From Podarcis vaucheri (taxonomy: Eukaryota), in assembly GCA_965113315.1 (NCBI GenBank), contig OZ220368.1: 64,000 nucleotides of DNA. One strand, written 5' to 3'. A model generated the notes under the pieces. The model was given only the letters and a program-made list of their open reading frames with translations. It had not been told where the DNA came from and ran no database searches. Shown here one piece after another: positions 1 through 64,000 of this stretch. The position numbers and the translations under genes are program-made. Position 1 is the stretch's first letter. Every line of letters begins with the position of its first letter.

Positions 1-291
1 GTCTCCGTGTTTAATGGCCTCAGCGGGTGGAGAGCGCAGCACTAGCTGTGAAAATGACAAAAATCAATAGCTAATCCAGTGCACTCAGTCAACCTTTTCA
101 AAGCCTCATCTGTATTGATTTCCAAGTGCTGCTCTTCTTGTCCCTTGACGTAATCAGCCTGTTTGCTCAGCAGACTCTCTTGCTCTTGTTCCCTAGTCAT
201 TTTCTCTCTCTTTCCTCATACTTAAACATAGACTACTTAAAACTTGTTCACTTGCCCCTGCACCCCAAAAGATAGGCAGAAGATACCAATA

Positions 292-507
292 GAGTGGTAC
301 CTTGGGTTAAGAACTTAATTCGTTCTGGAGGTCCGTTCTTAACCTGAAAGTTTCTTAACCACTTTAGCTAAAGGGGCGTCCCGCTGCCACCATGCCACCG
401 CCACGCGTTTTCTGTTCTCAATCTGAAGCAAAGTTCTTAACCCGAGGTACTATTTCAGGGTTAGCGGAGTCTGTAACCTGAAGCATCTGTAACCTGAGGT
501 ACCACTG
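292..507. mobile_element. Tc1/mariner (Tigger/pogo-like) MITE
   Basis: TIRs (c/g)AGTGGTACCT.GGGTTA ... TAACCTGAGGTACCACTG flanked by TA; same family at 14424, 45000, 45323, 54857, 61044. Confidence 0.85.
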
Positions 508-580
508 TATAGGGAACAGATTGGAATTAGACAGAGGCTGCAATGTTATTAAATACAGCAGACCCTCGGGTTATGTTACC

Positions 581-13858: not shown

Positions 13859-14423
13859 ATATTTTGTGTGTGATTTAAGGTATTGCAAGGAGAGAGTTTG
13901 GTCATGAAGAATGTGCATCTGAGGGTGTTTCCTCCCATAGAAGACCCACCCAAGTCAATTCCTATGGCTTTCTTTTTCTTTTTGCAGATCCCATATTAAA
14001 AAAGGAACAGAAAAGAAAAGAAAAGGAGGGTCTTTAAGTTTCTTCATGTCAGTCATTTGCTCTTCAGCAATCTTCCATAGTAAAATTGTGTCTTGCTGCT
14101 GCAGCACTGTAGCACTCATTGGACAGCCTTGTAGTCCCAAATGGTGTACTGTTGCATTTTCTGGATTCATTCAGGAAGATCTTTTGTAAAAGCTGGTCCA
14201 AGAGTGATGCAAAACCAAAGAGCCATCATTAATGCTATCGGTGTACCATTCCTGTTTTTATAGGGTTCAGTAAATGTGATCCCTGCTCAATTATTAATGA
14301 GCTGTCTCACTGAACTGAAGAAAGAGTAGGGGGGGGGGAACAGGACCAGTTTTGCTGCTGAAAACCAGTTGTCTATAGAGTCTAGGCTGAACCTACTTCA
14401 CATATTGTGCTGTCTACACTGTA

Positions 14424-14664
14424 CAGTGGAACCTTGGGCTATGTACCATCCTCCTTACGAATGCTTCAGGTTACGAGCGCCGCTAATCGGAAAGTAGGTG
14501 CTCCTGGTAGCGAACTTTGCTCCAGGATGCGAGCAGAAGTCGTGCGCTGGTGGTGCGGCAGCAGCGGAGGCCCCATTACTGAAAGAGCACCTCAGGTTAA
14601 GAACGGGTTCAGGTTAAGAACGGACCTCCAGAATGAATTAAGTTCGTAACTGGAGGTATCACTG
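14424..14664. mobile_element. Tc1/mariner (Tigger-like) MITE
   Basis: TA-CAGTGGAACCT ... AGGTATCACTG-TA. Confidence 0.85.
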
Positions 14665-15429
14665 TATATGCATTTCCATGTAGGGAAAGCAACAATCAGG
14701 GGCACTAGTTAAATGCCCCTATTACAACCAAACTGCAATTGATAGGACACATTGAGTGGACATGCTTCACTTGTTTCATGGTGCTGCTGGTGCTACTTTG
14801 ATGTCTTCTTGCACCTCTGCAGCACCATGTATCTCTAGGCCCAGGTTGCAGTTTATTTTTAAATCTAGTGTGAATTCATCTGAGAGCTTGAGTTAGAAGA
14901 CACACAAGTCAAAACATCTCATGATAATTGTTTCCAGAAGCCGCATCAGCAGCTTGATTGACGTATTTCTCATCAATAAGTTGGGCATGTTTACTTCTGT
15001 GTACCAAGCATTTTTGCATAAGTGGAAAAGGCACCTTCTCGGGGATGATGGAAAAGTATTTTGGAAATGAGTGAGGTCAGGAATTACAGAAATCATCCAG
15101 CCATTACCACCTAAGGCCAACCCTCTTCTGAATTTTGGTTTGGCATCAGGCTCTCCTCCCTTTCTTCCTTTTTTTCAAGTTTACCAAGTTGTGATGGGGG
15201 AAAGAAGGGGAGGACAAAACAACGGCTGAGAAGACTTTTTAAATCATTCAACTCTGCAATGAAAGCTTCTGAGCATGTTTAGAATCTGTGCTGCTGATGT
15301 GATCTCAGGGAAGACCAATTTTCAGCTCATTATTCATTGACCAAAGACTTGTTCATATGTTACACCAAACACATGTACAAACTGTCCGTACGCATGTACA
15401 CATGTTTGTGTGAAAGCATGTTCACTATT

Positions 15430-42908: not shown

Positions 42909-44859
42909 AAATGTGAACTGAATCAAATTTCTTCCTCATGCCGAGGCATGAGCAGCATACAACAGAAGCAGAGAGGAAGCATAAAAGGGAAGCTAAGAGA
43001 AAGGAGGGCAAAAAGAAAAGTGGTAGAGAATGAGAGTATTTATTTATTTAGCCAAATTTATATACCGCTTACTCAACAGAAAGCCTCTCAGCGGATTACA
43101 AAAAGCCGCCTAAAGTATTAGCAGGTTTTTTTAATTGAATCTAAAAAACACATTGAAAACGGATTGACTTTGAGTGATCAACGAAAGACGAGGAGGAGAA
43201 TTGACGAATATGTACCCTTTCTGAAGAAAACGGACTGCTTTTGGGGAAAATACAGGGATGCCATCCCCCAGTGTAGAGCAGAGCCATGCCTGCCTGTTGC
43301 AATAAACACACTGCCTTGAAAAAGTGCGCTTAAAAGGAAATTGATTGCTCCTATTGTGAAGAAAAAGCAGCTGTAGACCCCATTCCACACTAGTTTCCTG
43401 CTGAAAGTTACCCGCCTTGTTGGAATATATTCCTAAATGGGCTTGTCTGCTGTACCAAGCACCTTTGTAGAACAAATTGCTGGGGGGTGGGGGCGAGGAT
43501 TTTTCAGTAGAAACTGCCATCAGCCCCTGCTCTGGATTGGAAGCATATTTCAGATGGAAGTCCCAAAGATGCTTTTTTTAAAAAACTAAAAGCAACCAGT
43601 TTAAATACACTGTGTTAAAGTGTGTTTATTGCAAGGAGGCATGAAGTTTGATCCTAGTCCAGATGCACTGTGCCCCATATAAAATCATCTATGAATAGCC
43701 GGTTTACATCCATTTTCTCAGATATGATTTGCAGAATTAGACCACAATTTGGCCAGAATGAAGTACTTTGACTTCCCGATGATTTTAGTGGGAGAGATAA
43801 GGATGTGCTTCAACTTATTCCCACTGAAATCAATGGAACAAAAAAGTGCTTAACTTCAGCTGGATTGTGTCCTTGTTTTGCATGCTTCAAGCATCCAGTT
43901 TTCTTGGGTGAAAAAATGTACGGTACCCTAGGTGCACTTTTCATTGTGCGATCTCCACACTGAATCTCTAGACCTGCAGGGTAATCCTTGTGGGACATTG
44001 TCACAAATCGTCTCTACTATGGCAGTGCCCAGTTTCAGCCAGTTAATCTTACTGTTTTCCTTCTGGAAACAAAAAGAACGACCTGGAACATGAAATATCC
44101 CAGAAATGCATTGATTTTTGTTCTATGGGTAGGTTTATTATCTTAGTCCACGCTAGCAGATTGGGGGACTAAAATACCACATCATTTTTCCACAGAAAAA
44201 TGGTCAGGGTAGGGTCAAGAAGCCATGTGTTGGCACACACCATATAATATTGTCTGGGGACAAAGAACAGTTGCCTTGCAGGTTTCTTAACGGCATGAGA
44301 AACATACACACACCCCAAAAAGTTAATGTTGGTGTTCAGTTTAAGTAAAGTTTTTTTCTAGAAAGTTTGCAGTATTACCACAACATTTTTACTTTAAAAT
44401 ATAATTTCTGTTGTTTGTAACTGGGGCAAAAGCCCTCTTTTTCCATGTCTCAGTCAGAGAATGTCACTGTGAAAAAAGTTTCAACAAGTATGCTTTATAT
44501 GTGGTGAGGTAGTCCCTGAAGAGAACTACTTCAGGCTGTGCTCAAGGGAAAATGTTCACTCCTTGTTTTAATGTAATCACTATTTAGGATTCTGGTGTGG
44601 AACTGCGTACTATCAAATTCAATAACCAGGCATGGTCATGACAAGCAGTTCCTTGCAAGGTGCTGGAAACAGCATCGTTTTTGAACAGAACACACATATA
44701 TACATTATGACATCGGCATGCAGAGTAGATGAGAATGGAGGCCCGTTCCTTAGCAAGCTGGTGCCTATATTCATTTCAGCAGCAGATTCTCAATCAACCA
44801 TGGCATCCTTCCGCAGCGGTTGTCTGAGTTGAGGGTGGATGGCACCTCTTTGCCTTGGC

Positions 44860-44995
44860 TTGGGTCATTTACAGAAGGGGATGCTTGGGGAGTACTCTTC
44901 AGCCCTGTGGAGCCTTCAATGTGGAGTTCCTCAGGGTTTGATTTTATCCCCCATACTGTTTAATATCTACATGAAACAGCTGGATGGAGTTTTGG
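44860..44995 (+). mobile_element. L2/CR1-group reverse transcriptase fragment
   Basis: CGVPQGLILSPILFNIYMKQL (RT motif B). Confidence 0.75.
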
Positions 44996-44999
44996 AGTA

Positions 45000-45564
45000 C
45001 AGTGGTAACTTGGGTTACATACGCTTCAGGTTACATACGCTTCAGGTTACACACTCCGCTAACCCAGAAATAGTGCTTCAGGTTAAGAACTTTGCTTCAG
45101 GATAAGAACAGAAATCGGGTTCCGGCGGCGCGGCAGCAGCAGGAGGCCCCATTAGCTAAAGTGGTGCTTCAGGTTAAGAACAGTTTCCATGGCTGTTTAA
45201 AGTGGCACAATGCTGCTTTAATCGCTTAGTGCAGATGGAGTCATAGAAGGGGGATTTGGAGAACCCATGAAGTGTGAACCAAGTAAATAACCATTCTGTA
45301 GTATCCTAGTGTGAACTTAGTACAGCGGTACCTCGGGTTACATATGCTTCAGGTTACATATGCTTCAAGTTACAGACTTCGCTAACCCAGAAATAGTGCT
45401 TCAGGTTAAGAACTTTGCTTCAGGATAAGAACAGAGATTGGGTTCTGGCGGCGCAGCAGCAGCAGGAGGCCCCATTACCTAAAGTGGTGCTTCAGGTTAA
45501 GATCAGTTTCAGGTTAAGAACAGACCTCCGGAAAGAATTAAGTACTTAACCCGAGGTACCACTG
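45000..45564. mobile_element. Composite Tigger-like MITE with captured 209-bp tract
   Basis: Outer TIRs with TA at 45000 and 45564; 45180-45388 matches 60901-61109; internal TIR at 45323. Confidence 0.88.
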
Positions 45565-46677
45565 TACGTTGCCCACAATATACCGATGACACACAGCTCT
45601 ACTTCTCCTTGACATACGCAAGCGTGGCTGTGAATGAACTGGGCTTTTCATCTTTTTTGTCATTGTGATCTTGGCTGCTGGTGCACACTTTTTTTTTTTA
45701 CCTGCAGCACTCCAGAGTGAGAGCAAGCATTGCCCTCACTCTAGTTAACACTAGAGTGAGTAACACTAGAGTTACTCTAATTTTCCTACTCATATTGAAA
45801 TATTGCCTCTCAATGAGGCCAAACTTAGATTCAAAACATGTTTCGGGGTATGCATACCCCCAGAAAAAAGTACTGTGCATACAATTTTCCTTTGATGACA
45901 CCATTTTTGTTGTTGTCGTATTCAGAAACGGGCTATTGAATACAAAACAGAAAATATGAAGTTCTGGAGACTTCCAGAGAAAGACCTTCTGTCTGAGACC
46001 TGCTACCACTAATCACAGGCGTTGAACCAGGGAGACCATGGGACTAACGGAGTATAAAGCAATTTCTTATTTTTGGACAGGGTAGAGATTAGAGACAGAT
46101 GGCTTGAGATGAGACCTCGTCTGTATGACCTCCTTACAGCCTGAAATATCACTGGTTCAAACAAAGAAAAGAGCAAACACATATATAAATAAGAGCCTGC
46201 GGAAGGCTAAGGACAAGGCAGCCGAGTGACTCACTCTCCATGCTCCAGGGGATTACAGGAGATGGGTTACTTTAGTCAGGCAAAGTCTTTTGTTTCAACT
46301 TAATGTAGTGTAAAAGGTTTGGATTTATTCTAACAGTATTAAAGGCATGTCCTGGACCCCTCTTAGGCTGTGACTGGGGAGCCCACACATTTGCGTCATT
46401 TGTAAATCCTTTTGGGATTTGCGGGGGCCTGGCTGCGGCATATATTTTACATATACCATTTAAAATAAATAACCTAGCATCCTATTGGGTAGCTTAATGT
46501 GCTGCACTGACCACACTGGCAATGCTTTGATTCTTGGTCAGCAGGGAAACTGAATAACCCTATATCTCACAGCTTCTGGATGCAGTGTGGCCAGTAATGT
46601 TAGCAGCCATCACGTCTGTAGAATGTGGGATATAATCCACTGGGAGCAGTCAAATACAACATTCCTTGTTTTGCTAG

Positions 46678-53160: not shown

Positions 53161-54856
53161 TTTATGTACATTTACTGACTTTATGTCCAATTCACTTTAT
53201 AGTCTCTGGGGAAATCAAATGTCTCATACATAAAATTACCCCTGAGAGGGATGGTACATCTGTTGGAAAAAAATTGTAAAGTGTTCACCCTAACTGGGGT
53301 TCCTCAAAGGAACACCAATAGACATGAGCTTTAAGTTAAAAGTTAGGCCTTGGTTAATATAAACGTACATAGAGTGAGCCTCTTAAAATATCAAAAGGAG
53401 GCTGCACATTGACCTTGTCAGGTATCATCTTCAATACACGTCCAACTACACAGGCAATTACTGCTTAACCAATCAGACAATTATAGCAAAAATAGTTGCA
53501 ACCCCTTGAAAGCATTCTAAACCAATCAGAAACCAGTCAAGAGCCATCACTCCTAGACAGACTTGCTATATTGGTTTCAATGTGCATGATGGCAAGAGAA
53601 GGGGTGTAGCCCTCAGACCATATTGTAAGTGCTCACAACTCAGATATTTTGTCAGTGCTTGTGTGTAATTTTAAGGATGTATATGGAAGTGTTATTAAAA
53701 AACCATGATGAACCTGCCTGGTCTGGATTTGGACATTGGGTGATCACTAGTGCTGAACAATCAATCACTGTACAAACCATATTACCAATGATCCCTTTGA
53801 TCAAAGTATCCCACCCCCCACCACCATGTATATATGATCTTTGTATTCCTGCTTTGTTTCACACTAAGTCAGATTTTCCCCAAGAACAATAAATCAGGAA
53901 ATATTGAAGTCATTTTGTAAAAATGACTTTAGCTGAAACAAGTTTTTGTAAGGTGGCAAGGAATTGGAGTGTTTTTCATTAAGTTTGCATGAAAGGATGA
54001 GCAAAAGCTGCATATTTAATATTAAGGACTTTCCACCAGCAGCACATATTCAAGTTCATCACAATAGCAGTAGTAATAAATAAAGAGGTAAATCATCTGC
54101 TGATGGGAGTCAAGTGCTGAGCAAGAAAGGATATTTTGTATGATTACAGCTGGCATTTTAACCTGGGGGGGGTGAAATCTTTGTTTTTCCACTACCTTTC
54201 TAAAACTGGTATTTTGGCTTCGTTATTTTTATTTTATTTTTAAAATCCTCTTTTTTCTGAAGGGAAGGTATAAAAAGAAGGGCAGGGGATTTTTCTAGGA
54301 TTTTAGGTCCTAAAATCATATTTTCGTTTGCTTAGGTTTTCTTTTATATCTCTGTTCCTTCATTGCAAGGTATTGGAGGGTAACAAATTATTTTACGAAA
54401 GGACGAGAGTTTGAGTTTCCAGTCTGACATTTAAATTGGAATTCACATTTGATGGCATGAAGAAAATTTAAATGCATGTCATCAATGCGGCACTATAAAG
54501 AAGATTTCTTAAAAGCTTTCACTTCCTTTCTGTTTGCCGTTACATGTGCCCAGAGAGAGCTTTGATTCATACGAGCCATTGTAAATAAGCATCAATTGTT
54601 GGTTCTTCCCTTGTCTGAAAAGCATCTGCCTTTGTATGATAAAACCTATTGTGGATGCTACTACATGTGACTACTGTAAGGTACTCAGAGGTCCTAGAAT
54701 TTTTAAAATAGGAAGTAGATACAAACATATACCACACAAAATGGCAGGATTTAAAATCATCGTATGAGGGGTGCATATGGTCAAATATTATTGTGAAATG
54801 TATCATTCTAGTACAATACTTGCACTTTTTTAGCCTGTGAAATAAAAATCAGAGTA

Positions 54857-55057
54857 CAGTGGTACCTTGGGTTACATACGCTTCAGGTTACATACTCCGC
54901 TAACCCAGAAATAGTGCTTCAGGTTAAGAACTTTGCTTCAAGGTGAGAACAGAAATCGGGCTGCGGCAGCAGCGGGAGGCCCCATTAGCTAAAGTGGTGC
55001 TTCAGGTTAAGAACGGACCTCCGGAACAAATTAAGTACTTAACCCGAGGTACCACTG
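54857..55057. mobile_element. Tc1/mariner (Tigger-like) MITE
   Basis: TA-CAGTGGTACCTTGGGTTA ... TAACCCGAGGTACCACTG-TA. Confidence 0.9.
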
Positions 55058-55623
55058 TACTCAATGTGGCGATCACACAGGGTCCCCGGACATTTCACCG
55101 TCTATTGATCCCTGTGCCACCACTTTATTTCTCGCTGCCACCACCCAGGCCCTACCTGGGACAACACTGAGTCCAGTCAGGGTTAAATTGAAACATAAAC
55201 TTTTGTTTATTTATTGCAGTTTAACAAGCGTGTGGTTTCATCAACAGTATCAGTCAATTACATTCATGGAGTGCCTATCCAGACCCATAACTTTCACTAC
55301 CTGTTCTCACTCACTAAACCACCAACTTGCTCGAGGGCTGGGAGCCTCCTGTATATACAGAGGTTCCCTATGTGGCTTAATTCAGGTTCTAAATTGTGCA
55401 GGAAGTCTCCATATGTGCAGGCTTCAGACTAATGCCCCACAAGTTAGAGGTAAACAGGAAGGGGGTGGCGCTTCCTCTGCTAGTCTTTCTGCACTTTCTG
55501 CTCACTAATAGGTCTTAAGCATGCAGAACACCTGCATAGGGCTTTATTCTGGTTCCAGGTAATAGATCAATGAGTTATAGTGGTCTTTCTGGGCCATCCA
55601 GCCTAACCCAGTACAAGATACTG

Positions 55624-60600: not shown

Positions 60601-61043
60601 GTTGGTCCTGGCTTTATCTGGACAGGTTGGAAGGCTGTGGCTCTATTGCAGATTATCTGTGTTCCACACAGCAAGGTTTCAGGTCCAATTCCAGGTAGGG
60701 AAGGGAGTCCTGCCTGGAAACCACAGCCAGTCAGTATGGAGAAAATTGAGCTATGCCACATTCACACTGTGCATGGAAAGCCCTGTGATGCTACCACTGG
60801 AGAAGAGGGGTTGACTGTTAAACCACTCTGGAAATTGTATCTCTAGGAAGGGAAATGGACGCTCTAGGAAGGGAACCCTTCTCAGCAACCATAACAAACT
60901 ACAGTTTCCATGGCTGTTTAAAGTGGCACAATGCTGCTTTAATTGCTTAGTGCAGATGGGGTCATAGAAGGGGGATTTGGAGAACCCATGAAGTGTGAAC
61001 CAAGCAAATAACCATTCCATAGTATCCTAGTGTGAACTTAGTA

Positions 61044-61285
61044 CAGTGGTACCTTGGGTTACATATGCTTCAGGTTACATACGTTTCAAGTTACAGACTT
61101 CGCTAACCCGGAAGGATTACTTTGGGTTAAGAACTTTGCTTGCGGATGAGAACAGAAATCGTGCTCTGGTGGCGCAGTGGCAGCAGGAGGCCCCATTAGT
61201 TAAAGTGGTGCTTCAGGTTAAGAACAGTTTCAGATTAAGAACGGACCTCTGGAACAAATTAAGTACTTAACCCAAGGTACCACTG
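61044..61285. mobile_element. Tc1/mariner (Tigger-like) MITE
   Basis: TA-CAGTGGTACCTTGGGTTA ... TAACCCAAGGTACCACTG-TA. Confidence 0.9.
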
Positions 61286-62545
61286 TACTAGATAGAAAAC
61301 TGTATTATACTGAGCCAGAGCACTGATCTAGGTTCCTATGAAGAAGCAGCAGTGGCAAGGGTAATCACCAAGTAGCATGGTAGGTTGGTAATAAGGAAAA
61401 TAGGAAGCAGGGGTAGGTTCTCTGCCATTCATGGGAAAGAGGGCATATAAGCAGAACTAAATGAAAGCTGAAAGCATAGACCCAGTAAGAATGGAAATAG
61501 GGTAGTGTGAAGCTTTGACTAGGCTCAAGATTGCTTGTTAGGGAGGATGGAAGCAAGGTTCAGAGGGGAAGGATGAAAGTATGTTGCAGGTGTGAGGTAT
61601 GGCTGAGCCCCATCTAGGATTTCTACATTTTTATGGCTGGTCCAAAATTTGGACACCAACCTGATGAGATTTCCAATTCCAGATGCTTGAGAAATTTGAT
61701 TTTTCTTGTTGAATTCCTATGCAAAAAAAGTATTGATCCACAGCTCTCAGTCTAGTATGCACATCAGAACTTAGCTACCCAACAGATGGGGCACAGCTTC
61801 AAATGTGGCACAGTTCCCACAGCTTAAAAATATATATTTTTAATGAGTTTAAATGTGTATTTTGAGAGTTATATAGGTATTGTGCATTTTTCATTAAAAA
61901 AACAAACGCCAGATTAATGCTGCAATGAAATACAATGGAATACAATGGTGAGCACATCAAAAGGGCTTGAACGTCCCCTCCCCCTCCTTTCACAGGGCCA
62001 TTCATCTTCCATAAAAGTGAGAAGAGCATTGTCAGAGACGTTCTTGGAAGAGCGGGGCAAATTTCAACAGATATGAGATGGCAAAGCGTTGCATCTGACA
62101 TTCTTTTTTTTAAAAAAATGTTTAAGATTTCCTGCTACCAAGAATGCCACTGATAACAGTGTTACATCAGCATGTGGAACCGTTCTATTGTGCTGTTCTC
62201 AGGAAGAAATGCCAGCAGATTGTTGTCAATTGGCCACTGAAACTTATAACATTGTTTTAAAAGAAAGACTCATGCTGCTTTCTCTGCCTACTATGGTATG
62301 TGCCTCCTGCTAAAAAATGTTAGAAATTAATCCTAATTCCACCCCCTTTAAAAAAATGCTGAATAAAGCTGGGCTGAACACACTCCCCACTGACAAAGCC
62401 TAGCAGAGTCAGCAACCACTTTCTGTGCCAACTGAAAACTTTTTTATACTTCCAGGCCTGTGCAGGCTGTTAAGAATACATCTTTCCACATTTCTGTCTG
62501 TTTTTAACTTTATGGCTTTATGTTTTTATTACTATAAACTGCATA

Positions 62546-62547
<2 letters not shown>

Positions 62548-62594
<47 letters not shown>
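62548..62594. repeat. (AT)n microsatellite abutting the Penelope end
   Basis: About 23 AT units. Confidence 0.95.
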
Positions 62595-62597
<3 letters not shown>

Positions 62598-62677
62598 CTT
62601 TCGTAGATTTTCACGGGTACAGGAATGCAGGTTTTGGTGTCTTCGGGTGTCTTCCCGTGTAAGAGTCGGGGTGTCTG

Positions 62678-62717
62678 TGCGACGTTTCGACGAGGTCTCA
62701 CTCGTCATCTTCAGGCT
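62678..62717 (-). ncRNA. Minimal hammerhead ribozyme motif in the Penelope terminal repeat
   Basis: Minus RNA: GC-CUGAAGA-U-GACGAG-ugagac-CUCGUC-GAAA-C-GUC-GC; core boxes, 6-bp helix II, GUC site; helix I only about 2 bp. Confidence 0.7.
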
Positions 62718-63514
62718 GGTGCTTTCGGCTTCTTGTTACTGGAACAGAGCAGAGTCTGGTGTTTGAGTTCCTATAAATACTGTTGAGGGGTGTGGTGTAT
62801 AGCCTCCAACGTTCTGGGCAGAGAGGAAGTTCCTAGATTAGTGTGCCTTTTCTTCTTTTGTTCCTTAATTACTTGAGGGATATCTTGGGTGATTTCATGA
62901 GTGATATTCTGAATATCACTGGGTGGGTCATTAAGTGTAGATTAGTTGCTAAAGCTTTCGTGTCTTGACCTCTTGAGCTTGTGAAGAGTTTTTCTGAGAA
63001 GATGGCTGTGCTGCATTTAGTTGTGCTCTGGCTTGGCTTCGTGTATAGGGGCGAGCTATGGTTTTGTGCCTTGTGCCAGCCAGATCTGTGTAGGGATTGC
63101 AGGGGGGTGCAGCATCCGGAGGTGCCACTATAGTTTGGCTACTGGATGGAGTCTGTAATATGTCTGTGGAGAGGGTCTGGGTTTGGGTCTGGTATGGTTG
63201 ATTGGTGACGGCGTTCTGTGTGCCTCTGGTTCTGGTGTCGGTTTTTGTGGGGAGGGCTAATTTCCAGATGTCTGGCAGGCGGGACGTGTCGTCACGCTTG
63301 TTCATGTTGTGAGGGTGTTTCTCTATCTCGATGGCTTCCATGATTATTCTCTTGTGGTGATGTTCCATGTTAAAGAGCAATTTGGAATCTGCAAAATTAA
63401 TTTCGTGTCCTGTTTCTTTCATGTGTTGGAAAAGAGAGGAAGTTTTTTCTTCTTTTTTGACGGCATTCTTGTGTTCTGCGATACGTGCATTTATTCGTCT
63501 GTTTGTTTGTCCAA

Positions 63515-64000
63515 AAAGAAACACCCCCCAAAAACCAAGACACAGAAGAAAACAATGGCATGGCCCTCCTTCCTTATATCAAGGGCACTACAGACAAAAT
63601 CAGCAAAATCCTCCATAAACACAATATCAAAACAGCCTTCTGCACCAACCAAAAAATAGCCAATATCCTCAGAAACCCAAAAGACAAAATCCAGCTGGAA
63701 AACCAAGGGGTCTATGAAATACCCTGCAAAGTCTGCCCAGCCACGTACATTGGACAAACAAACAGACGAATAAATGCACGTATCGCAGAACACAAGAATG
63801 CCGTCAAAAAAGAAGAAAAAACTTCCTCTCTTTCCAACACATGAAAGAAACAGGACACGAAATTAATTTTGCAGATTCCAAATTGCTCTTTAACATGGAA
63901 CATCACCACAAGAGAATAATCATGGAAGCCATCGAGATAGAGAAACACCCTCACAACATGAACAAGCGTGACGACACGTCCCGCCTGCCAGACATCTGGA
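63515..64000 (+). pseudogene. Penelope ORF fragment: RT thumb/linker plus GIY-YIG endonuclease (frameshift near 63832)
   Basis: LPYIKGTTDKISKIL...GVYEIPCKVCPATYIGQTNRRINARIAEH; the left arm continues H...HEINF...EAIEIEKH...MNKRD. Confidence 0.88.

What the first reader, a model, noticed from the sequence alone, without database searches (positions are those of the whole stretch)
45000..45564. MITE that captured a 209-bp tract from 15.7 kb downstream (60901-61109) by a two-step template switch
Seen: 45180-45388 closely matches 60901-61109. Entry is at an 8-nt microhomology, ACAGTTTC. The tract carries about 140 bp of non-MITE flank plus the start of the 61044 MITE. The MITE at 45323 is chimeric: its first about 65 nt share variants with 61044 (TTCAAGTTACAGACTTCG), then after TAACCC it carries the variants of the 45000 copy (AGAAATAGTGCTTCAGG, GGATAAG). 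Inference: synthesis-dependent repair invaded a nearby paralog and returned by homology. The result is a TIR-bounded composite able in principle to move host DNA, like a Pack-type element.
Basis: partly seen in the sequence, partly recalled or inferred. Interest (0 to 1): 0.7.

Follow-up and report, generated by a model that had tools for sequence, protein, structure and literature searches.

The report
Transposon copy patched from its neighbour
One small DNA transposon copy carries about 200 bases copied from beside a related copy 15.7 kb away and a doubled middle, most likely the scar of a single DNA-repair accident; it occurs once in the genome and is an ordinary kind of event.

Summary
45000-45564 sits in one TA site inside a decayed LINE (17 of 24 LINE paralogs read straight across the site). 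It is MITE A positions 1-188, then 135 bp of flank plus the head of paralog C (61044), then A-type positions ~62-242 again. The head marker shared by B (45323) and C occurs 8 times against 24,001 for the family consensus. The body marker shared by A and B occurs in 70 of 24,200 copies. The switch lies in a 9-bp block, 45380-45388. The junction is unique and the tract has only two near-identical copies, so the composite has not spread. Direction is donor to recipient. A 16-kb repeat-mediated duplication followed by a 15.7-kb deletion gives the same sequence and is not excluded. It works like published repair-mediated duplications and single-copy Pack-TIRs, but fails screening filters of both. 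No gene was found in the captured DNA. Low interest.

The parts
44797..44997 (+). Decayed LINE reverse-transcriptase fragment, left of the insertion
   Evidence: Aligns with LINE paralogs that continue into 45567+; a related copy's open frame hits Pfam RVT_1 at 6e-32
44998..44999 (.). Left TA of the target-site duplication
   Evidence: Sequence; paralogs hold a single TA here
45000..45187 (+). MITE A, family positions 1-188, rare subtype; left TIR has 2 mismatches in 17
45180..45187 (+). 8-nt microhomology junction ACAGTTTC, shared with 60901-60908
   Evidence: junction 22-mer unique in the genome at up to 1 mismatch
45188..45322 (+). Captured flank, 135 bp, copy of 60909-61043: end of an older repeat (~55 bp), low-copy DNA, and the donor's TA
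45323..45379 (+). Head of chimeric MITE B (positions 1-57), copied from paralog C
   Evidence: Shared rare variants at 46 and 57: 8 versus 24,001 genome-wide; lacks the subtype marker at 53 that 9 of 10 A-subtype copies carry
45380..45388 (+). Homologous switch interval (positions 58-66), identical in A, B and C
45389..45564 (+). Body of B (positions 67-242), A subtype; repeats A positions 67-188; intact right TIR
   Evidence: 70 of 24,200 copies carry the marker, A and B among them; B-A 6 of 122 differences versus B-C 20 of 122
45565..45566 (.). Right TA of the target-site duplication
45567..45650 (+). Continuation of the same decayed LINE, right of the insertion
60800..60965 (+). Older repeat at the donor with a 20-bp deletion that 4 of 4 aligned paralogs lack; it runs on upstream of 60901 only in the donor
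60901..61109 (+). Donor tract
61044..61285 (+). MITE C, complete, TA-flanked, different subtype; donor of the head

Best explanation
The locus is one MITE insertion (A) that carries a 323-bp gain made of DNA copied from beside and inside paralog C plus a second copy of its own middle, most likely from a single repair event with two template switches. Shown: one TA site, the mosaic order A(1-188), donor flank, C head, A-type body, the direction of copying, and single copy number. Inferred: a broken end within A, being extended leftwards on an intact sister copy (collapsed fork, or gap repair after a break or excision), switched to C by homology at positions 58-66, ran through C's head and 135 bp of flank, and was then joined to a strand ending at A position 188 by the 8-nt microhomology. 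No transposase step is needed after A inserted.
For: Single TA site: 17 of 24 LINE paralogs span it. Head from C: 8 versus 24,001. Body from the A subtype: 70 of 24,200; 0 of 37 randomly sampled copies carry all four body markers. One switch explains 19 of 20 non-CpG sites, p 0.004. B's tail shares 0 of C's 4 derived changes, while its head shares 3 of C's 5 private changes (leaving out subtype site 53). Both junctions lie within ~200 bp at the donor and ~125 bp at the recipient, as one event predicts. An unguided landing upstream of a same-strand paralog has about 0.6% chance, which favours homology first. The order sister copying, homologous template switch, end joining was observed in mouse ES cells, with microhomology or added bases at the final join (PMC5104497, abstract and passages). 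Repeat-initiated BIR followed by MMBIR is the published model for PLP1/MECP2 rearrangements (PMC4888836, passages).
Against: The final sequence is identical under either order of the switches and under duplication-then-deletion. Only 9 bp of perfect identity lie at the switch (A and C differ at 24 of 188 sites), which is short for Rad51 invasion. A's body has no private change, so B's body is tied to A's subtype and position, not to A's own mutations. The 0.6% figure ignores that only events able to return survive. No relative with an uninterrupted A was shown, and no contig crossing the junction was listed in any of 8 runs laid (lists were cut).
Confidence: 0.5

Rival explanations
1. Two separate events. 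Unequal recombination or a template switch between direct repeats A and C made a 16-kb tandem duplication with a C-head/A-body chimera at its junction. A later deletion between the two ACAGTTTC octamers removed 15.7 kb of one copy and left the 323-bp remnant.
For: Gives the observed sequence base for base (worked out). Chimeric repeats at junctions are the signature of Alu/Alu-mediated rearrangements (PMC6071635, passages). An 8-nt microhomology suits a deletion junction.
Against: The deletion must start inside A and end within ~200 bp of the duplication boundary, removing 98% of one copy. No selective reason was found: 0 of 112 open frames tested in the window hit Pfam, though short exons would be missed.
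Confidence: 0.25
2. One reading: synthesis through A stalled at position 188, jumped 15.7 kb forward by the 8-nt microhomology, copied ~200 bp and returned to A by homology (FoSTeS/MMBIR).
For: Same product. The microhomology is longer than chance (0.033%). Switches over 7-32 kb with 4-15 bp microhomology are reported in E. coli (PMC4888836, passage).
Against: The octamer occurs at 6 places on the window's + strand; choosing the one just upstream of a paralog is a coincidence of about 0.6% unless return is required for survival.
Confidence: 0.13
3. The flank and the whole of C (388 bp) were copied into A, replacing its right end; later gene conversion from A, 323 bp away, overwrote B's middle.
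For: BLAST aligns 45180-45567 to 60901-61288 as one block at 91%. Positions 158-242 hold no site where A can be compared informatively beyond 157.
Against: B's tail shares 0 of C's 4 derived changes at 191, 207, 213, 231, three of them at CpG sites. It needs two events.
Confidence: 0.09
4. Independent insertions of two MITEs, a standard composite family, or an assembly error.
For: The family has at least 24,000 copies and close neighbours are common: 11 pairs within 700 bp among 152 sampled hits.
Against: Single TA site; unique junction; both rare markers; 9 differences in 209 bases from the donor exclude a collapsed or doubled assembly; run X5 of another organism label holds two versions of the tract, one of the recipient type.
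Confidence: 0.03

Closest known systems
Repair-mediated duplications (Pace et al. 2009, PMC2671141; abstract, passages, sections 6 and 21 read)
   Same: Short insertion inside a TE, found at one other place, donor on the same chromosome, microhomology at a junction; size near their mean of 162 bp (proximal) or median of 204 bp (distant).
   Different: Donor 15.7 kb away (824 of their 1,136 were within 5 kb). The TE halves overlap by 122-131 bp, outside their +/-30 bp filter. One junction is homologous and makes a chimeric repeat.
Single-copy Pack-TIRs formed by gap filling (Tan et al. 2021, PMC8277862; abstract, passages, sections 7, 8 and 14 read; supplements not seen)
   Same: TIR-bounded, one TSD, single copy, cis donor, microhomology, TcMariner superfamily, no transposition after capture.
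   Different: The donor abuts a TIR element of the same family, which their pipeline excludes (TE within 100 bp). The TE gains 122-131 bp where theirs lose a median 4.6%. An internal full TIR is carried along.
Alu/Alu-mediated rearrangement with a chimeric repeat (Song et al. 2018, PMC6071635; passages read)
   Same: A hybrid of two directly oriented, diverged repeats with a short identical block at the switch.
   Different: Repeats are DNA-transposon MITEs; a second, microhomology junction cancels nearly all of the 16-kb copy-number change.
[quoted passage not shown] 2016, PMC5104497; abstract and passages read)
   Same: Sister copying, homologous template switch, then end joining, giving a complex breakpoint with an ectopic insert.
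   Different: Experimental reporter in mouse cells; their homologous-switch clone ended with one added base, and the ectopic template was a plasmid.

Membership tests
pogo/Tigger-type MITE (host element) | Short non-coding element with TIRs and TA duplication | tested here: met
   242 bp, 17-bp TIR in the sampled consensus; TA duplicated relative to LINE paralogs
pogo/Tigger-type MITE (host element) | TIRs shared with a DDE_1 transposase element | tested here: met
   L192: ~2.95-kb TA-flanked element with near-matching TIRs at both ends, right 76 bp 80% like the MITE, 541-aa frame from ATG. Only 1 of 20 loci examined showed both ends matching; whether it is the actual partner is untested
Single-copy Pack-TIR (Tan 2021) | Both TIRs of one element flank a 100-5,000 bp internal sequence | tested here: met
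Single-copy Pack-TIR (Tan 2021) | Unique parental copy at 90% identity or more | tested here: met
   One hit at 96%, next at 76%
Single-copy Pack-TIR (Tan 2021) | No TE within 100 bp of the parental copy | tested here: not met
   Donor flank abuts MITE C and starts inside an older repeat; criterion from section 14
Single-copy Pack-TIR (Tan 2021) | Orthologous TE without the capture in outgroups | tested here: inconclusive
   Contigs of 8 runs break at the MITE; X2, X11 and X18 list only a donor-type tract, X5 and X1 list two versions
Multicopy Pack-TIR / Pack-MULE-like mobilised element | Several copies with distinct TSDs | tested here: not met
   1 junction match in 1.61 Gb; 2 near-identical tract copies
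Multicopy Pack-TIR / Pack-MULE-like mobilised element | Cargo holds gene sequence | tested here: inconclusive
   First ~55 bp are older repeat; 0 of 112 window frames of 75 aa or more hit Pfam; transcription not tested
Repair-mediated duplication (Pace 2009) | Insert of 50 bp or more with one donor more than 50 bp away, no poly(A) or new TSD | tested here: met
Repair-mediated duplication (Pace 2009) | TE halves resume within +/-30 bp of the consensus position | tested here: not met
   A ends at 188 and resumes at 58-67; criterion from section 21
FoSTeS/MMBIR-type single replicative event | Both junctions formed in one event | not testable with these tools
   Needs a de novo event or the absence of intermediates in populations

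The most novel reading that the evidence does not exclude
High-copy MITE families routinely capture the flanks of neighbouring copies by entering them through homology and leaving by microhomology. Such paralog-guided captures are removed by the filters of both published screens, so they would be an uncounted class of TIR-bounded composites, in a genome that still holds open pogo-type transposase frames with similar TIRs.
Probability: 0.2. Interest if true: 0.55.

Novelty: new variant of a known kind. Interest (0 to 1): 0.24.

Why it matters
As a single locus it matters little: an old, single-copy, apparently non-coding repair scar. Its value is as a clean worked example. Rare subtype markers let each piece be assigned to its parent, and the old LINE gives the empty site. 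It also shows a blind spot: captures whose donor sits beside a same-family element are discarded by the published Pack-TIR and repair-mediated-duplication screens. If a genome-wide count showed many, rates of repeat-guided local duplication would be underestimated.

Tried and rejected
High-copy composite family: rejected. Two independent insertions: rejected by the single TA site and both rare markers. Retrotransposed insert: no poly(A) tail or new TSD in the sequence. A contig joint 44977-45585 in runs X1, X4 and X5 first looked like an empty-site allele; with only 21 letters on its short side and both flanks being LINE, it is read as a LINE paralog and not used as ortholog evidence. Contig depth right of the composite was similar to depth left of it in 4 of 4 runs; contig depth is no copy number, so this is not counted against the 16-kb intermediate. 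Runs X4, X13 and X14 do not cover the tract (holes prove nothing). No contig crossing 45187/45188 was listed in 8 runs; the lists were cut. Gene context: 0 of 112 frames hit Pfam. Among 152 sampled family hits, 11 close pairs were looked at by eye: 8 neighbours and 3 copies split by unrelated inserts, none with this architecture; the sample is small and biased to best hits. Earlier scan findings: none returned. Paper searches gave no report of this architecture in a MITE; the library lacks most subscription papers. A family name for the MITE was not found; my impression that it is a lizard element is recalled and comes from no call.

Full report
Names used: A = 45000-45187, B = 45323-45564, C = 61044-61285; positions are those of the 242-bp MITE family. 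The window is G000:C25:80352001-80416000 in a 1.61-Gb genome.

Observation. The tract 45180-45322 matches 60901-61043 at 138 of 143 bases, ungapped, and the match begins at the octamer ACAGTTTC. B's positions 1-66 differ from C at 4 of 66 and from A at 8 of 66; positions 67-188 differ from A at 6 of 122 and from C at 20 of 122. One switch explains 21 of 24 informative sites (permutation p 0.006) and 19 of 20 non-CpG sites (p 0.004); the exceptions are position 41 and CpG sites 124 and 133.

Are the shared variants diagnostic? They could have been mere family consensus, so I counted them. The 25-mer with B's variants at 46 and 57 occurs 8 times in the genome, B among them, against 24,001 for the majority form; C carries both variants but misses the pattern by its own change at 41. 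The body motif with 105A, 119G and 121T occurs 70 times against 24,200 for the widened motif, and A and B are two of the 70. In 600 kb of arbitrarily chosen stretches, 0 of 37 copies had all four body markers. Nine of 10 A-subtype copies also carry 53C, which B's head lacks. So B is a true chimera. One limit: A's body has no private change against its subtype consensus, so B's body is tied to A by rare subtype and position only.

One insertion site. The left flank of A and the right flank of B are two halves of one decayed LINE. Of 24 paralogs fetched with the left flank alone, 17 align straight across the site with a single TA; the other 7 end at or near it. A related copy's frame hits Pfam RVT_1. 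The composite therefore fills one TA site with TA duplicated. Relative to a plain 242-bp MITE it has gained 323 bp: 135 bp of flank, about 60 bp of C's head, and a second copy of A positions ~62-188.

Direction and cargo. At the donor, an older repeat runs on for about 90 bp upstream of 60901; at the recipient it is cut at the octamer. Both carry a 20-bp deletion absent from 4 of 4 aligned paralogs. Copying went from 60901 to 45180. The first ~55 bp of the cargo are this older repeat, so 'host DNA' is generous. None of 112 mostly unmasked frames of 75 aa or more in the window hit Pfam; short exons would be missed.

Copy number. The tract has two near-identical copies (100%, 96%), then a 76% match 98 kb upstream and ~50-bp old-repeat matches (40 scored of 59 candidates). 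The junction 22-mer has one match at up to 1 mismatch. The composite has not spread. Its left TIR has 2 mismatches in 17, its right TIR is intact, and B has its own left TIR with 1 mismatch and its own TA. The genome holds at least 150 DDE_1 matches, many with long open frames; 1 of 20 loci examined, L192, has near-matching TIRs at both ends and a 541-aa frame. This places the MITE in the pogo/Tigger group and keeps mobilisation possible in principle, nothing more.

Relatives. Twenty of 24 listed public runs hold the left flank, under six organism labels; I laid 8. Run X5 (organism D) has two contigs over 45193-45325, one donor-like and one with recipient-type bases at 45223, 45239, 45297 and 45298; X1 (organism A) has two versions at 45297-45298. 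X2 and X18 show one donor-type contig that runs on 86 letters beyond the octamer, X11 one donor-type contig, and X4, X13 and X14 do not cover the tract. No contig across the junction was listed, and the lists were cut. This hints that the composite is old and shared with at least one other lineage, but X5's second version could be a donor allele. The duplicated parts differ at 15 of 331 bases, while subtype copies differ from their consensus at 6-9 of 242, so the event is probably not much younger than the subtype's spread (inference).

Mechanism. Any model must double A ~62-188, which a plain two-ended SDSA cannot do without a second intact copy (inference). A single event with two switches does so. 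The order cannot be read from the product. An unguided microhomology jump lands within 200 bp upstream of a same-strand family head about 0.6% of the time (34 heads in 600 kb), whereas entry by homology explains the donor and leaves the microhomology for a local final join ~125 bp from the first switch. That order has experimental precedent (PMC5104497, abstract and passages) and matches the BIR-then-MMBIR model (PMC4888836, passages). Recombination between A and C giving a 16-kb tandem duplication, then a 15.7-kb deletion between the two octamers, yields the same sequence (0.25); it needs a deletion that removes 98% of one copy. Copying of all of C with later conversion is weakened because B's tail shares 0 of C's 4 derived changes (0.09).

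Comparison. Pace et al. found 1,136 inserts in human TEs with a single donor, 824 within 5 kb (PMC2671141, sections 6 and 21). Tan et al. found 370 Pack-TIRs in 100 animal genomes, about two per 10,000 TIR elements, nearly all single-copy, with a cis bias and microhomology in 67.6% (PMC8277862, sections 7, 8, 14; supplements not seen and may list comparable cases). With 24,000 or more copies in this family, a few such captures are expected. This one works like them but fails the +/-30 bp filter of the first and the 'no TE within 100 bp of the donor' filter of the second, so I do not file it as a member of either set. Its chimeric junction is that of Alu/Alu-type rearrangements (PMC6071635, passages). 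Six paper searches gave no report of this exact architecture in a MITE.

Verdict. Real, well resolved, single-copy and without sign of function or movement. A variant of known repair-mediated capture. Interest 0.24.

Noticed in passing
window 62547-63514 and 63750-64000, continuing into L066:1-740: A very young element of about 2.2 kb with ~970-bp inverted arms 98.7% identical; 98-99% matches in at least five other fetched loci, with rearranged copies in L061. Looks like a recently active foldback-type element.
   Followed up: partly
L070:4863-5080 (98 kb upstream of the donor): A 76% match to the donor's older repeat that continues ~60 bp into the low-copy flank; possibly an older short local duplication of the same spot.
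   Followed up: partly
L207:720-1120 (G000:C1): MITE head, then ~110 bp of other sequence, then a full MITE copy: a similar outline to this finding; donor and chimerism not tested.
   Followed up: partly
L208:630-943 (G000:C10): MITE positions 1-73 followed directly by a full copy at the internal TA: self-nesting or partial tandem duplication.
   Followed up: partly
window 45066-45187 versus 45389-45510: B's body has 6 private changes and A's body has 0 against the subtype consensus; three are CpG decay. A weak, uncorrected hint of error-prone synthesis in the newly made copy.
   Followed up: partly
L192:323-3275: A ~2.95-kb TA-flanked pogo/Tigger-type element with TIRs close to the MITE's and a 541-aa open frame; many other DDE_1 copies have frames of 575 or 631 aa and some pairs are 98% alike.
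   Followed up: partly
window 290-509, 14421-14666, 54853-55061: Three more copies of the MITE family or its older relatives, 77-85% like the sampled consensus.
   Followed up: no
L135:2572-3004: A MITE copy split by a 186-bp AT-rich insert with an A tail and an ~18-bp duplication, like a truncated LINE insertion.
   Followed up: no
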